Source: Escherichia coli (lineage in GTDB: Bacteria > Pseudomonadota > Gammaproteobacteria > Enterobacterales > Enterobacteriaceae). Taken from it: a stretch of 64,000 nucleotides of DNA. Positions 6,987 through 55,100 of this stretch are shown one piece after another; the first letter of the stretch is position 1; the number at the start of each line of letters is the position of its first letter. Where the stretch lies: NCBI RefSeq assembly GCF_003334405.1, contig NZ_QOWM01000003.1; one strand, 5' to 3'. A program made the translations under genes and the position numbers. Below the pieces are notes generated by a model. That model was not told where the DNA came from, did not search any database, and saw only the letters and a program-made list of their open reading frames with translations.

Positions 6987-7156
6987 AAGGGTATCATTAA
7001 GACCAGGCCGGATCACATCCGGCCTGGTGTGCCAATGCCTGCAATGAATGATAGTCGCGTCTTATCATGCCACCATTATAAAATTATCGCTGTTTTGCGG
7101 TACGCTATCGCCAGGTTATGCCAGAATCATAAAAAAGCAGGTGGGGAGTCGTCAGG

Positions 7157-10540: not shown

Positions 10541-10583
10541 TCTTATTCAGCCTGACTGGTGGGAAACCACCAGTCAGAATGTG

Positions 10584-46573: not shown

Positions 46574-46743
46574 GATAGTGCTCCACAAAGGTTATATTTG
46601 TTGCTGTGGCGTCACTATAATTTGTTATTTTATTATTTGCAAAAGGTAAAATATAAACTTCAATTATTAAAAATACGAATGGGAATAAAACGCATTACCG
46701 CTATTTCTTTAATCAGCGAAGATCCCCTCGCTGATTAAAATAT

Positions 46744-47414: not shown

Positions 47415-47421
47415 ACAAAAA

Positions 47422-47444
47422 ACCTGCTCCGGCAGGTTTTTTTG
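47422..47444 (+). terminator. Intrinsic terminator of azuC
   Basis: Hairpin ACCTGC tccg GCAGGT followed by T7. Confidence 0.8.
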
Positions 47445-49159: not shown

Positions 49160-50149
49160 ATGCACAAATTTACTAAAGCCCTGGCAGCCATTGGTCTGGC
49201 AGCCGTTATGTCACAATCCGCTATGGCGGAGAACCTGAAGCTCGGTTTTCTGGTGAAGCAACCGGAAGAGCCGTGGTTCCAGACCGAATGGAAGTTTGCC
49301 GATAAAGCCGGGAAGGATTTAGGGTTTGAGGTTATTAAGATTGCCGTGCCGGATGGCGAAAAAACATTGAACGCGATCGACAGCCTGGCTGCCAGTGGCG
49401 CAAAAGGTTTCGTTATTTGTACTCCGGACCCCAAACTCGGCTCTGCCATCGTCGCGAAAGCGCGTGGCTACGATATGAAAGTCATTGCCGTGGATGACCA
49501 GTTTGTTAACGCCAAAGGTAAGCCAATGGATACCGTTCCGCTGGTGATGATGGCGGCGACTAAAATTGGCGAACGTCAGGGCCAGGAACTGTATAAAGAG
49601 ATGCAGAAACGTGGCTGGGATGTCAAAGAAAGCGCGGTGATGGCGATTACCGCCAACGAACTGGATACCGCCCGCCGCCGTACTACGGGATCTATGGATG
49701 CGCTGAAAGCGGCCGGATTCCCGGAAAAACAAATTTATCAGGTACCTACCAAATCTAACGACATCCCGGGGGCATTTGACGCTGCCAACTCAATGCTGGT
49801 TCAACATCCGGAAGTTAAACATTGGCTGATCGTCGGTATGAACGACAGCACCGTGCTGGGCGGCGTACGCGCGACGGAAGGTCAGGGCTTTAAAGCGGCC
49901 GATATCATCGGCATTGGCATTAACGGTGTGGATGCGGTGAGCGAACTGTCTAAAGCACAGGCAACCGGCTTCTACGGTTCCCTGCTGCCAAGCCCGGACG
50001 TACATGGCTATAAATCCAGCGAAATGCTTTACAACTGGGTAGCAAAAGACGTTGAACCGCCAAAATTTACCGAAGTTACCGACGTGGTACTGATCACGCG
50101 TGACAACTTTAAAGAAGAACTGGAGAAAAAAGGTTTAGGCGGTAAGTAA
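49160..50149 (+). CDS. araF: L-arabinose-binding periplasmic protein AraF
   Basis: 329 aa from MHKFTKALAAIGLAAVMSQSAMA. Confidence 0.97.
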   Translation: MHKFTKALAAIGLAAVMSQSAMAENLKLGFLVKQPEEPWFQTEWKFADKAGKDLGFEVIKIAVPDGEKTLNAIDSLAASGAKGFVICTPDPKLGSAIVAKARGYDMKVIAVDDQFVNAKGKPMDTVPLVMMAATKIGERQGQELYKEMQKRGWDVKESAVMAITANELDTARRRTTGSMDALKAAGFPEKQIYQVPTKSNDIPGAFDAANSMLVQHPEVKHWLIVGMNDSTVLGGVRATEGQGFKAADIIGIGINGVDAVSELSKAQATGFYGSLLPSPDVHGYKSSEMLYNWVAKDVEPPKFTEVTDVVLITRDNFKEELEKKGLGGK

Positions 50150-50218
50150 TTTGCCGGAAAAATTCCCCTCTGCATGATGCAGAGGGGGTGTGAACGACCA
50201 GTGATTCACGGAGACGTT

Positions 50219-51733
50219 ATGCAACAGTCTACCCCGTATCTCTCATTTCGCGGCATCGGTAAAACGTTTCCCGGCGTTAAGGCGCTGACGGATATTAGTT
50301 TTGACTGCTATGCCGGTCAGGTTCATGCGTTGATGGGTGAAAATGGCGCAGGAAAATCAACTCTCTTAAAAATCCTCAGCGGCAACTATGCGCCAACCAC
50401 GGGTTCTGTAGTGATTAATGGGCAGGAAATGTCCTTTTCCGACACGACCGCAGCACTTAACGCGGGCGTGGCGATTATTTACCAGGAACTGCATCTCGTG
50501 CCGGAAATGACCGTCGCGGAAAACATCTATCTCGGCCAGCTGCCGCATAAAGGCGGCATTGTGAATCGCTCATTGCTGAATTATGAGGCGGGTTTACAAC
50601 TTAAACATCTTGGTATGGATATTGACCCGGACACGCCGCTGAAATATCTCTCCATTGGTCAGTGGCAGATGGTTGAAATCGCCAAAGCGCTGGCGCGTAA
50701 CGCCAAAATTATCGCCTTTGATGAGCCAACCAGCTCCCTCTCTGCCCGTGAAATCGACAATCTTTTCCGCGTTATTCGTGAACTGCGAAAAGAGGGGCGG
50801 GTAATCTTATACGTTTCTCACCGTATGGAAGAAATATTTGCCCTCAGCGATGCCATTACTGTCTTTAAAGATGGACGTTATGTCAAAACCTTTACCGATA
50901 TGCAGCAGGTTGACCACGACGCGCTGGTGCAGGCGATGGTCGGGCGCGACATTGGCGATATCTACGGCTGGCAACCGCGTAGTTATGGCGAGGAGCGCCT
51001 ACGTCTTGATGCTGTGAAAGCACCAGGCGTGCGTACGCCAATAAGTCTGGCGGTTCGCAGTGGTGAAATTGTTGGGCTGTTTGGTCTGGTAGGGGCGGGG
51101 CGTAGCGAATTAATGAAAGGCATGTTTGGCGGGACGCAAATCACCGCCGGTCAGGTTTATATCGACCAACAGCCGATCGATATTCGTAAACCGAGCCACG
51201 CCATTGCCGCAGGCATGATGCTCTGCCCGGAAGATCGCAAAGCGGAAGGCATTATTCCCGTGCACTCCGTTCGCGACAATATCAACATCAGTGCCAGACG
51301 TAAACATGTGCTCGGCGGTTGTGTAATCAACAACGGTTGGGAAGAAAACAATGCCGATCACCACATTCGTTCGCTCAACATCAAAACGCCGGGCGCGGAG
51401 CAACTGATCATGAATCTCTCAGGCGGAAATCAGCAAAAAGCCATTCTGGGCCGCTGGTTATCGGAAGAGATGAAGGTCATTTTGCTGGATGAACCTACGC
51501 GCGGCATTGATGTTGGCGCTAAGCACGAAATATATAACGTAATTTATGCGCTGGCGGCGCAGGGCGTGGCGGTGCTGTTTGCCTCCAGCGACTTACCTGA
51601 AGTCCTCGGCGTTGCCGACCGGATTGTGGTGATGCGGGAAGGTGAAATCGCCGGTGAATTGTTACACGAGCAGGCAGATGAGCGTCAGGCACTGAGCCTT
51701 GCGATGCCTAAAGTCAGCCAGGCTGTTGCCTGA
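50219..51733 (+). CDS. araG: L-arabinose ABC transporter ATPase AraG
   Basis: 504 aa with two ABC cassettes ([17 protein letters not shown]). Confidence 0.97.
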
Positions 51734-51747
51734 GTAAGGAGAGTATG

Positions 51748-55100
<3,353 letters not shown>

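What the first reader, a model, noticed from the sequence alone, without database searches (positions are those of the whole stretch)
50165..50187. Perfect palindrome between araF and araG
CCCCTCTGCAT-G-ATGCAGAGGGG forms an 11-bp-arm stem-loop directly after the araF stop and upstream of araG. An intercistronic hairpin in this position would be expected to stabilise the upstream araF message or attenuate read-through. The sequence is clear; the function is inferred.
Basis: partly seen in the sequence, partly recalled or inferred. Interest (0 to 1): 0.15.

Follow-up and report, generated by a model that had tools for sequence, protein, structure and literature searches.

The report
Conserved hairpin between araF and araG
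The palindrome is real: it is E. coli's version of a conserved RNA stem-loop after the arabinose binding-protein gene, most likely protecting that message from decay, and on the opposite strand it ends a weak antisense RNA, so it is an ordinary, known kind of element.

Summary
The palindrome CCCCTCTGCAT-G-ATGCAGAGGGG is at window 50165-50187, 15 nt after the araF stop and 31 nt before the araG ATG (50219). It is single-copy and not a chance match. All 81 Enterobacteriaceae araF-araG spacers examined carry a strong stem-loop. In the non-REP spacers it starts 10-32 nt after the araF stop. The stem sequence drifts with compensatory changes and sense-strand G.U pairs. Six Citrobacter loci and one unclassified Enterobacteriaceae locus have REP/BIME-like elements at that position. 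A U-tract follows the stem on the sense strand only in Atlantibacter. Canonical intrinsic termination of araFGH transcripts is therefore unlikely. The best reading is a 3' protective stem-loop of the malEFG type, which lets araF mRNA outlast araGH mRNA. Arabinose RNA-seq fold changes fall from araF to araG to araH, which fits this but is indirect. On the minus strand the element therefore looks like a canonical terminator. Published Term-seq (Adams et al. 2021) maps a weak antisense 3' end 8 nt after the stem (window 50157, minus strand), listed three times, apparently once per growth condition. No sense-strand 3' end could be checked because araFGH was uninduced in those media. Verdict: real, functional, ordinary.

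The parts
49160..50149 (+). araF coding sequence (periplasmic arabinose-binding protein); stop codon TAA at 50147-50149
   Evidence: ORF list. RefSeq annotation of identical K-12 sequence, NC_000913.3 1985139-1986128(-), mapped by y = 50149 + (1985139 - x).
50150..50218 (+). 69-nt araF-araG intercistronic spacer
   Evidence: The spacer is 57-115 nt in 80 of the 81 sequences and 259 nt in L056.
50158..50164 (.). A5T2 run (AAAAATT) directly 5' of the stem on the sense strand. On the minus strand it is the AAUUUUU tract that follows the stem.
   Evidence: Sequence. The terminator scan calls the site on the minus strand only. The run is conserved in the Escherichia loci L001-L004 and partly in Citrobacter L008/L012/L015, and is absent in the other non-REP spacers.
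50165..50187 (.). Perfect palindrome forming a 10-bp GC-rich stem with a 3-nt loop on either strand
50157..50157 (-). Experimentally mapped 3' end of an antisense RNA, 8 nt after the stem (...GGGGAAUUUUUC-3')
   Evidence: Adams et al. 2021 Term-seq, Supplementary file 1: MG1655 1985131(+), listed three times with average read counts 1565, 1137 and 1414. Coordinates mapped. The RNA ending there folds with a terminal hairpin and an unpaired tail, z = -3.75.
50210..50221 (+). araG Shine-Dalgarno (GGAG, 50210-50213) and ATG start (50219-50221); not part of the hairpin
   Evidence: Sequence and annotation. GGAG and ATG are invariant or nearly so across the 69 aligned spacers.
50219..51733 (+). araG coding sequence (ABC transporter ATPase), the downstream cistron

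Best explanation
The palindrome encodes a stem-loop in the araFGH mRNA that belongs to a conserved class. This class is a stable hairpin placed shortly after the stop codon of the promoter-proximal binding-protein gene of an ABC-transporter operon. On the sense RNA it has no U-tract, so RNA polymerase is expected to read through it. After the araGH part of the transcript is cut by an endonuclease or ended prematurely, 3'-to-5' exonucleases (PNPase, RNase II) would degrade back to the hairpin and stop. That leaves a stable, translatable araF-only mRNA, so that AraF is made in excess over AraG and AraH. What is shown: the hairpin, its conservation by covariation, its sense-strand bias, the missing U-tract, and the decline of induction along the operon. 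What is inferred: the exonuclease block and the stability difference. In Escherichia the same hairpin has a second property. The A5T2 run before it makes it a canonical intrinsic terminator on the opposite strand, and a low-abundance antisense RNA that starts somewhere inside araG ends there in vivo. The 3' end is shown. Whether this is selected or incidental is not known.
For: 1. All 81 araF-araG spacers (the window plus 80 species-level loci) hold a hairpin of dG -18 to -33 kcal/mol. In the non-REP spacers the core helix starts 10-32 nt after the araF stop. There are 55 distinct 5' arms.
2. The spacers fold better than their own dinucleotide shuffles. The median z is -2.3, 97.5% have z below -1, and only 331 of 8100 shuffles are as stable. 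They also fold better than same-length coding windows from the same loci: mean -29.0 against -20.2 kcal/mol, with 124 of 2430 windows as stable.
3. I set the pairing register from conserved flanking motifs rather than from the predicted structure. In that register, 34 distinct spacers by 9 pairs are 95.8% canonical. Column shuffles give a mean of 86.1% and a maximum of 89.5% in 2000 trials, and slid registers give 38-62%. Double compensatory changes occur at pairs 3, 5, 6, 8 and 9.
4. The sense strand is the more stable strand in 64 of 72 distinct non-REP spacers and in 19 of 23 identity clusters, against a coding baseline of 60%. G.U pairs number 137 on the sense strand and 47 on the antisense strand. 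An E. coli SNP, 50170 C>T, keeps a sense U.G wobble but would make an antisense C.A mismatch.
5. Only Atlantibacter has a U-tract after the stem on the sense strand. The scan does not call a sense-strand terminator in E. coli.
6. In six Citrobacter loci and in L056 (Enterobacteriaceae bacterium RIT691), REP/BIME-like elements occupy the position and the CCCC-type hairpin is absent. A protective RNA structure between malE and malF stabilises malE mRNA (PMC5927463). That this structure is a REP pair is from my memory of Newbury et al. 1987, not checked here.
7. Dar & Sorek 2018 found the substrate-binding gene stabilised in five E. coli ABC-transporter operons. They describe 3' protective structures as the mechanism when the 5'-most gene is the stabilised one, as in malEFG.
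8. In the Adams Term-seq data the paralogous mglBAC operon has a strong sense 3' end 5 nt after its mglB-mglA hairpin, and oppA has one 9 nt after a hairpin with no adjacent U-tract.
9. Arabinose-induced log2 fold changes fall along the operon: araF/araG/araH are 9.71/6.72/5.07, 4.55/4.02/3.19 and 2.55/0.95/0.18 in three of four conditions. araB/A/D do not fall in the two 28 C conditions (PMC12299780 Table S1).
10. For the antisense side: the minus-strand terminator call, the Term-seq 3' end at 50157(-) listed three times, and the fold of that RNA.
Against: No direct measurement of a sense-strand 3' end at the hairpin, or of araF versus araG half-lives, could be retrieved. The Term-seq lists contain no sense 3' end here, but araFGH was not induced in those media. 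The RNA-seq evidence is fold change, not coverage. It could be distorted by different uninduced baselines, including antisense reads in araG if the libraries were unstranded. A 5'-to-3' decline along an operon also arises from ordinary polarity or decay without any hairpin. The Escherichia stem shows no strand bias, so the sense-strand argument rests on other genera. The sequences are related, so the counts are not independent events. My recollection that Horazdovsky & Hogg (J Mol Biol 1987) found an abundant araF-specific mRNA could not be checked, because the paper is not held.
Confidence: 0.6

Rival explanations
1. The hairpin is a leaky transcription terminator (attenuator) on the sense strand. 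A fraction of RNA polymerases stop right after it, producing araF-only transcripts by termination rather than by decay.
For: The position is right and the stem is strong. Induction steps down from araF to araG. Atlantibacter L076/L077 have a U-run after the stem. The mglB-mglA hairpin is followed by UUAUU and has a strong 3' end. In Clostridia, stem-loops after 5' SBP genes terminate with 20-96% efficiency, some with few U residues (PMC9045158).
Against: The E. coli sense tail is GUGUGAAC, with 2 U in 8 nt. The scan finds no sense-strand terminator. Seventy-nine of the 81 spacers lack a U-tract. In the Clostridium reporter, a hairpin with its tail removed gave only the read-through transcript. 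From established knowledge of E. coli RNA polymerase, a U-rich tract is needed for efficient hairpin-dependent release.
Confidence: 0.15
2. In E. coli the element's working role is on the minus strand only. It is an intrinsic terminator that stops antisense transcripts arising inside araG before they enter araF. Any effect on the sense mRNA is incidental.
For: This orientation alone fits the terminator consensus. A Term-seq 3' end lies 8 nt after the stem and is listed three times. The Escherichia stem is a perfect Watson-Crick palindrome with no strand bias. The stem and the A5T2 run are invariant across L001-L004 while the loop varies between 3 and 9 nt. Antisense transcription in this region is real: there is a Rho-dependent antisense termination region in araF and another antisense 3' end in araG.
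Against: The hairpin is conserved in dozens of genera that lack the T-run, with sense-strand G.U pairs. The antisense RNA is weak, at about 1100-1600 average reads, near the lowest counts visible in the parts of the table read, which are about 830-850. E. coli lineages tolerate one SNP that breaks the U-tract (50161 A>G) and another that makes an antisense mismatch (50170 C>T). No antisense promoter was identified beyond weak consensus matches.
Confidence: 0.1
3. The hairpin protects the downstream message, as in papBA. RNase E cuts in the A/U-rich stretch just upstream (GAAAA|AUU fits the RN|WUU motif). This leaves araGH mRNA with a 5'-terminal stem-loop that resists further RNase E attack.
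For: In Escherichia a match to the RNase E motif quoted in PMC5927463 lies 2-3 nt before the stem. 5' protective hairpins are documented in about 30% of decay-regulated operons.
Against: This would remove the hairpin from araF and lower AraF relative to AraG and AraH. That is the opposite of the stoichiometry seen for binding-protein transporters and of the induction gradient. The A/U-rich motif is absent upstream of the stem in most genera.
Confidence: 0.07
4. It is a DNA-level feature or has no function: a palindromic protein-binding site, a decayed REP-like or mobile-element remnant, or a chance palindrome.
For: It is a perfect palindrome. REP elements occupy the same spot in six Citrobacter loci and in L056. 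One E. coli strain has an IS200/IS605-family element inserted next to it.
Against: The stem sequence changes freely between genera while pairing is kept, which is not how a protein operator behaves. G.U pairs only make sense in RNA. It is single-copy and has no resemblance to the REP-like GCCGGATG...CATCCGGC core seen in the Citrobacter spacers. The chance expectation is about 4e-4 per spacer. No Rfam family matches.
Confidence: 0.03

Closest known systems
malE-malF intercistronic protective structure in malEFG (Newbury et al. 1987; re-measured by Dar & Sorek 2018, PMC5927463)
   Same: It is a stable stem-loop in the spacer right after the promoter-proximal binding-protein gene of an ABC importer. 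No terminator U-tract is needed. It is expected to block 3'-to-5' exonucleases so that the binding-protein message outlasts the membrane-component message.
   Different: From memory, the mal element is a pair of REP repeats belonging to a multi-copy genomic family. The ara hairpin is a unique, single-copy sequence. Differential decay has been measured for mal (half-lives of 3.5 versus 1 min), but I could not retrieve such data for ara.
mglB-mglA intercistronic hairpin of the paralogous galactose transporter operon mglBAC
   Same: It belongs to the same transporter family and has the same gene order (binding protein, then ATPase). A GC-rich hairpin lies a few nucleotides after the stop codon. 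A strong sense 3' end is mapped 5 nt after it by Term-seq.
   Different: The mgl hairpin is followed by UUAUU, so leaky intrinsic termination is more plausible there. For ara the sense tail has no U-run, and the sense 3' end has not been seen in the data available here.
Internal stem-loop terminators after 5' SBP genes of ABC importers in cellulolytic Clostridia (PMC9045158)
   Same: A stem-loop immediately downstream of the 5' binding-protein gene sets the SBP:translocator transcript ratio. The folding energy of the stem-loop contributes to the stability of the monocistronic SBP transcript.
   Different: In Clostridia these elements were shown to terminate transcription and generally carry U-rich tails. 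The RNA polymerase and the RNase set also differ. The enterobacterial ara hairpin lacks the tail.
Canonical and bidirectional intrinsic terminators of E. coli
   Same: On the minus strand the element has every sequence feature: a 10-bp GC-rich stem, a 3-nt loop and five U within 8 nt. The mapped 3' end is 8 nt after the stem.
   Different: It is not at the end of a gene pair. It sits inside an operon and faces against it. It has the U-tract on one side only, so it is a one-way terminator for antisense transcripts and not a bidirectional one.

Membership tests
Intrinsic (Rho-independent) terminator, sense strand (araFGH mRNA) | GC-rich stem-loop | tested here: met
   10-bp stem with 7 G-C pairs and a 3-nt loop; dG -18.2 kcal/mol.
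Intrinsic (Rho-independent) terminator, sense strand (araFGH mRNA) | U-rich tract immediately 3' of the stem | tested here: not met
   The tail is GUGUGAAC, with 2 U in 8 nt. The scan does not call it a terminator. A U-tract is absent in 79 of the 81 spacers.
Intrinsic (Rho-independent) terminator, sense strand (araFGH mRNA) | Transcript 3' end 7-9 nt after the stem in vivo or in vitro | not testable with these tools
   The only 3'-end maps retrieved are from uninduced cells in LB or M63-glucose. They list no sense 3' end.
Intrinsic (Rho-independent) terminator, antisense strand | GC-rich stem-loop followed by a U-rich tract | tested here: met
   CCCCUCUGCA-UCA-UGCAGAGGGG followed by AAUUUUUC. 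It is called by the scan on the minus strand. The fold shows a terminal hairpin with an unpaired tail.
Intrinsic (Rho-independent) terminator, antisense strand | Mapped RNA 3' end 7-9 nt after the stem | tested here: met
   The Term-seq 3' end at MG1655 1985131(+) equals window 50157(-), 8 nt after the stem. It is listed three times.
Intrinsic (Rho-independent) terminator, antisense strand | Independence from Rho | tested here: inconclusive
   The bicyclomycin table, searched by gene name only, lists a Rho-dependent antisense region 323 bp further on (1985454(+), window 49834) and nothing closer to the hairpin. No Rho score for this 3' end was retrieved.
3' protective stem-loop of a differentially decaying operon (malEFG type) | Stable structure in or near the spacer directly downstream of the gene needed in excess (the binding protein) | tested here: met
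   The stem starts 15 nt after the araF stop. In the non-REP spacers the core helix starts 10-32 nt after the stop.
3' protective stem-loop of a differentially decaying operon (malEFG type) | Structure conserved in related species | tested here: met
   z-scores, flank-anchored covariation and sense-strand bias.
3' protective stem-loop of a differentially decaying operon (malEFG type) | More upstream-gene mRNA than downstream-gene mRNA at steady state | tested here: inconclusive
   Only fold changes were available: araF > araG > araH in three of four conditions. No absolute coverage was available.
3' protective stem-loop of a differentially decaying operon (malEFG type) | Upstream-only RNA species ending at the structure, with a longer half-life that depends on 3' exonucleases | not testable with these tools
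   This needs a Northern blot, 3' RACE or rifampicin decay on induced cells. The 1987 araFGH mRNA paper is not held.
REP / BIME repeat | Match to the REP consensus and many copies per genome | tested here: not met
   There is no GCCGGATG...CATCCGGC core of the kind seen in the Citrobacter REP-like spacers. It is single-copy in the window and occurs at a median of one place per E. coli genome. REP-like elements do occupy this position in L005-L007, L009-L011 and L056.
Any curated Rfam RNA family | Covariance-model match | tested here: not met
   There is no hit over the hairpin, even at E <= 10 with permissive filters.

The most novel reading that the evidence does not exclude
The element is a two-strand device inside an operon. 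On the sense RNA it sets the AraF:AraGH ratio by protecting araF mRNA. In Escherichia it has additionally acquired an upstream A-run, so that the same hairpin terminates pervasive antisense transcripts coming out of araG. That would insulate araF and the araFGH promoter from antisense interference.
Probability: 0.25. Interest if true: 0.3.

Novelty: already known. Interest (0 to 1): 0.15.

Why it matters
It matters little beyond annotation. It is one more clear example of how bacteria make more binding protein than membrane subunits from a single operon. The comparative data show neatly that any stable hairpin will do, whether a unique stem or a REP element. The antisense 3' end is a useful caution: a palindrome between co-directional genes can be terminator-shaped for the opposite strand. 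Term-seq peaks at such sites should therefore be read strand by strand.

Tried and rejected
RNAalifold on a MAFFT alignment of 69 spacers predicted no pairs. The stems drift in register, so I replaced it with alignment-free z-scores and a flank-anchored pair count. The first anchoring run mis-anchored three loci and was redone.

Rfam gave nothing at the hairpin.

Literature searches for araFGH mRNA work returned mostly human ARAF papers. Horazdovsky & Hogg 1987, the 1989 J Bacteriol paper, Thomason 2015 and Stringer 2014 are not held.

Several supplements were unusable. Dar & Sorek NAR 2018 and Choe 2022 have no supplements held. The TERMITe tables have no araF entry. The Cappable-seq TSS table is truncated and uses older coordinates. 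As a result, the antisense promoter remains unidentified. Only weak consensus matches were found, at 50320-50292(-), 50504-50474(-) and 51279-51251(-).

I considered and rejected the in-frame ATG-ATG in the loop (the 50174 ORF of 519 aa) as an alternative araG start. It has no Shine-Dalgarno sequence, it lies inside the stem-loop, and the loop is not conserved. The annotation starts araG at 50219.

RNase III processing was considered and set aside on general knowledge, because a 10-bp stem is too short.

Full report
**Observation.**
The locus is the E. coli araFGH operon. A 2.8-kb stretch is 100% identical to K-12 strains and is annotated araF, araG, araH. Mapping onto NC_000913.3 uses y = 50149 + (1985139 - x). 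This gives araF 49160-50149, araG 50219-51733 and araH 51748-52734. The stem begins 15 nt after the TAA stop and ends 31 nt before the araG ATG. The araG Shine-Dalgarno GGAG lies at 50210-50213, outside the hairpin.

A 1-nt loop cannot form. The predicted RNA structure is a 10-bp stem with a UGA loop and a core dG of -18.2 kcal/mol. The window has 10 perfect hairpins with arms of at least 10 bp, against 0.37 expected from dinucleotide shuffles. Such hairpins are therefore a real, enriched feature class, and one in a 69-nt spacer is not a chance event. The 23-mer is single-copy and matches no Rfam family.

**Polarity.**
The simple terminator scan does not call the site on the sense strand, where the stem is followed by GTGTGAAC. 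It calls the site on the minus strand, where the stem is followed by AATTTTTCC. On the sense strand the element is therefore an A-run followed by a hairpin, with no U-tract.

**Comparative evidence.**
A scan of one genome per species with AraG returned 80 Enterobacteriaceae loci with 87-99% AraG identity. I extracted every araF-stop to araG-ATG spacer.
- All 81 spacers, including the window, contain a strong hairpin of dG -18 to -33 kcal/mol.
- In the non-REP spacers the core helix starts 10-32 nt after the stop codon and ends 21-70 nt before the ATG, mostly 21-43 nt.
- The stem sequence is not conserved. There are 55 distinct 5' arms. Examples are CCCCTCTGCA in Escherichia, GCCCCTCA in Enterobacter, GCTCCCCGC in Kosakonia, GGGCCTCTTGC in Klebsiella and TCTCCCTTCGC in Kluyvera.
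- The spacers fold better than their own shuffles. The median z is -2.3, and 331 of 8100 shuffles are as stable.
- They also fold better than coding windows of the same loci: -29.0 against -20.2 kcal/mol, with 124 of 2430 windows as stable.

RNAalifold on a plain MAFFT alignment found nothing, because the arms drift in register. I therefore fixed the register from the conserved flanking motifs (TTGY before the stem, CWGNNGT after it), which does not use the structure. In that register, 34 distinct spacers by 9 pairs are 95.8% canonical. Column shuffles never exceed 89.5% in 2000 trials, and slid registers give 38-62%. Double compensatory changes occur at five of the nine pairs. The sequences are related, so these are not independent events, but the direction is unambiguous.

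**Which strand is selected.**
- The sense RNA is the more stable strand in 64 of 72 distinct non-REP spacers. The mean difference is -3.2 kcal/mol, against -1.2 for coding windows.
- The same holds in 19 of 23 clusters at 80% identity.
- The hairpins contain 137 G.U pairs on the sense strand against 47 on the antisense strand.
- The Escherichia cluster is the exception. Its stem is a perfect Watson-Crick palindrome with no bias.

Within E. coli the 131-bp junction is at least 99% identical in 5386 of 5417 genomes. Two sampled variants are informative. The change 50170 C>T gives a sense U.G wobble but an antisense C.A mismatch. The change 50161 A>G interrupts the antisense U-tract.

**What the sense hairpin is not.**
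Only the two Atlantibacter loci have a U-run after the stem. A structure conserved in about 75 species without a U-tract is unlikely to work as a canonical intrinsic terminator. It is not a REP element, being single-copy and lacking the consensus. However, in six Citrobacter loci and in L056 (Enterobacteriaceae bacterium RIT691) the position is occupied by REP/BIME-like elements, and the unique hairpin is gone. This suggests that any stable stem-loop satisfies the requirement.

**What it most likely is.**
This is the arrangement described for malEFG and generalised by Dar & Sorek 2018. A structure just downstream of the gene needed in excess blocks 3'-to-5' exonucleases after the distal part of the polycistron has been cleaved. 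In five E. coli ABC-transporter operons the stabilised gene was always the substrate-binding subunit (PMC5927463). Stem-loops after 5' SBP genes also set transporter stoichiometry in Clostridia, where they act as leaky terminators and stabilisers (PMC9045158).

In the Adams et al. Term-seq tables the paralogous mglBAC operon has a very strong sense 3' end 5 nt after its mglB-mglA hairpin. oppA has one 9 nt after a hairpin with no adjacent U-tract. For araFGH itself I found only indirect expression evidence. In an arabinose RNA-seq study the log2 induction falls along the operon. The araF/araG/araH values are 9.71/6.72/5.07, 4.55/4.02/3.19 and 2.55/0.95/0.18 in three of four conditions. The largest step is at the araF-araG junction in three of the four conditions. 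araB/A/D do not fall in the two 28 C conditions (PMC12299780 Table S1). These are fold changes rather than coverage, and they could be affected by different baselines.

From memory, Horazdovsky & Hogg (J Mol Biol 197:27, 1987) reported an abundant araF-specific mRNA besides the full-length transcript. I could not retrieve that paper, so it is a lead and not evidence here.

**The antisense 3' end.**
Supplementary file 1 of Adams et al. 2021 (PMC7815308) lists a 3' end at MG1655 1985131 on the + strand, which is antisense to araFGH. It is listed three times, with average read counts of 1565, 1137 and 1414. From the file layout these appear to be the three growth conditions: LB at OD 0.4, LB at OD 2.0 and M63-glucose. 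The assignment of counts to conditions is inferred from sheet order.

The listed sequence is the reverse complement of this hairpin. I checked the table's convention on the SgrS row, which showed 50 nt upstream, then the 3' end, then 10 nt downstream. By that convention the RNA ends ...CCCCUCUGCAUCAUGCAGAGGGGAAUUUUUC-3'. That is window 50157 on the minus strand, 8 nt after the stem. An RNA ending there folds with a terminal hairpin and a free tail, z = -3.75.

The signal is weak, close to the lowest counts visible in the parts of the table I read. The same tables show another antisense 3' end inside araG (window 51123) and a Rho-dependent antisense termination region inside araF (window 49834). 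Low-level antisense transcription across the operon is therefore real. I could not identify its promoter.

The tables list no sense-strand 3' end here.

The A-run that creates the antisense U-tract is invariant in the four other Escherichia loci, while the loop varies from 3 to 9 nt. It is partly present in three Citrobacter loci and absent from the other non-REP spacers. It is therefore a lineage-specific addition to an older sense-strand element, selected or not.

**Verdict.**
'Stabilises araF mRNA' is the best-supported mechanism (confidence about 0.6) but is not directly shown. 'Attenuates read-through' by intrinsic termination is unlikely on the sense strand.

The element belongs to a long-known class in one of the most studied operons. 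RefSeq annotates nothing in the spacer, but nothing here is new in kind. Interest is low.

Noticed in passing
L084 (E. coli ECSC054, NZ_AP024112.1 2290678-2291370); corresponds to window ~50157/50158: An IS200/IS605-family element (tnpA annotated) is inserted immediately 5' of the A-run, separating araF from the hairpin. The element's end carries its own hairpin, CCCCCAGC-CTA-GCTGGGGG followed by TTTTCT.
   Followed up: partly
L005-L007, L009-L011 (Citrobacter) and L056 (Enterobacteriaceae bacterium RIT691), araF-araG spacers: REP/BIME-like elements (GCCGGATG...TATCCGGC) occupy the position of the unique hairpin. L056 has a 259-nt spacer with several repeated units.
   Followed up: partly
window 51123 (-), with promoter-like site 51279-51251 (-): Adams et al. 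Term-seq lists a second antisense 3' end inside araG (MG1655 1984165(+), listed once). It lies about 120 nt downstream of the best sigma-70-like match on the minus strand, TTGTCG-17-AATAAT, which suggests a short antisense RNA.
   Followed up: no
window ~49834 (-), inside araF: This is a Rho-dependent (bicyclomycin-sensitive) antisense termination region at MG1655 1985454(+), 323 bp beyond the hairpin. Antisense transcripts that read through the hairpin appear to be stopped by Rho.
   Followed up: no
window 50174-50218 (+): ATG-ATG in the hairpin loop is in frame with araG, so mechanical ORF calling gives a 519-aa ORF instead of the annotated 504 aa. It has no Shine-Dalgarno sequence, lies inside the stem-loop and is not conserved in other genera.
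   Followed up: yes
window 50170 and 50161; L082, L083: These are natural E. coli SNPs in the element. C>T at 50170 (strain 472) gives a sense U.G wobble. A>G at 50161 (APEC 102026) interrupts the antisense U-tract. Their frequencies in the population were not measured.
   Followed up: partly
L076, L077 (Atlantibacter), araF-araG spacers: These are the only loci where the sense hairpin (GGCGAGCGC...GCGCTCGCC) is followed by a T-run (TTTTTGG). It looks like a true sense-strand intrinsic terminator.
   Followed up: no
window 52772-52799 (+): A hairpin ATAGCCAACCG-CCATAA-CGGTTGGCTGT with a weak U-rich tail lies just after araH. It is presumably the operon's terminator, ahead of otsB.
   Followed up: no
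window 47417-47442, 7002-7028, 10552-10577, 26167-26193, 46708-46739: These are other perfect hairpins with arms of at least 10 bp. 47417-47442 is AAAAAACCTGC-TCCG-GCAGGTTTTTT, with the A-run and T-run shape of a bidirectional terminator.
   Followed up: no
araF-araG spacers of most loci: The stems have a consistent polarity, with a C-rich 5' arm and a G-rich 3' arm (for example GCCCCTC...GAGGGGC). A conserved CCAGACGT motif follows the stem in the Enterobacter, Kosakonia, Lelliottia and Leclercia group. The meaning of that motif is unknown.
   Followed up: no
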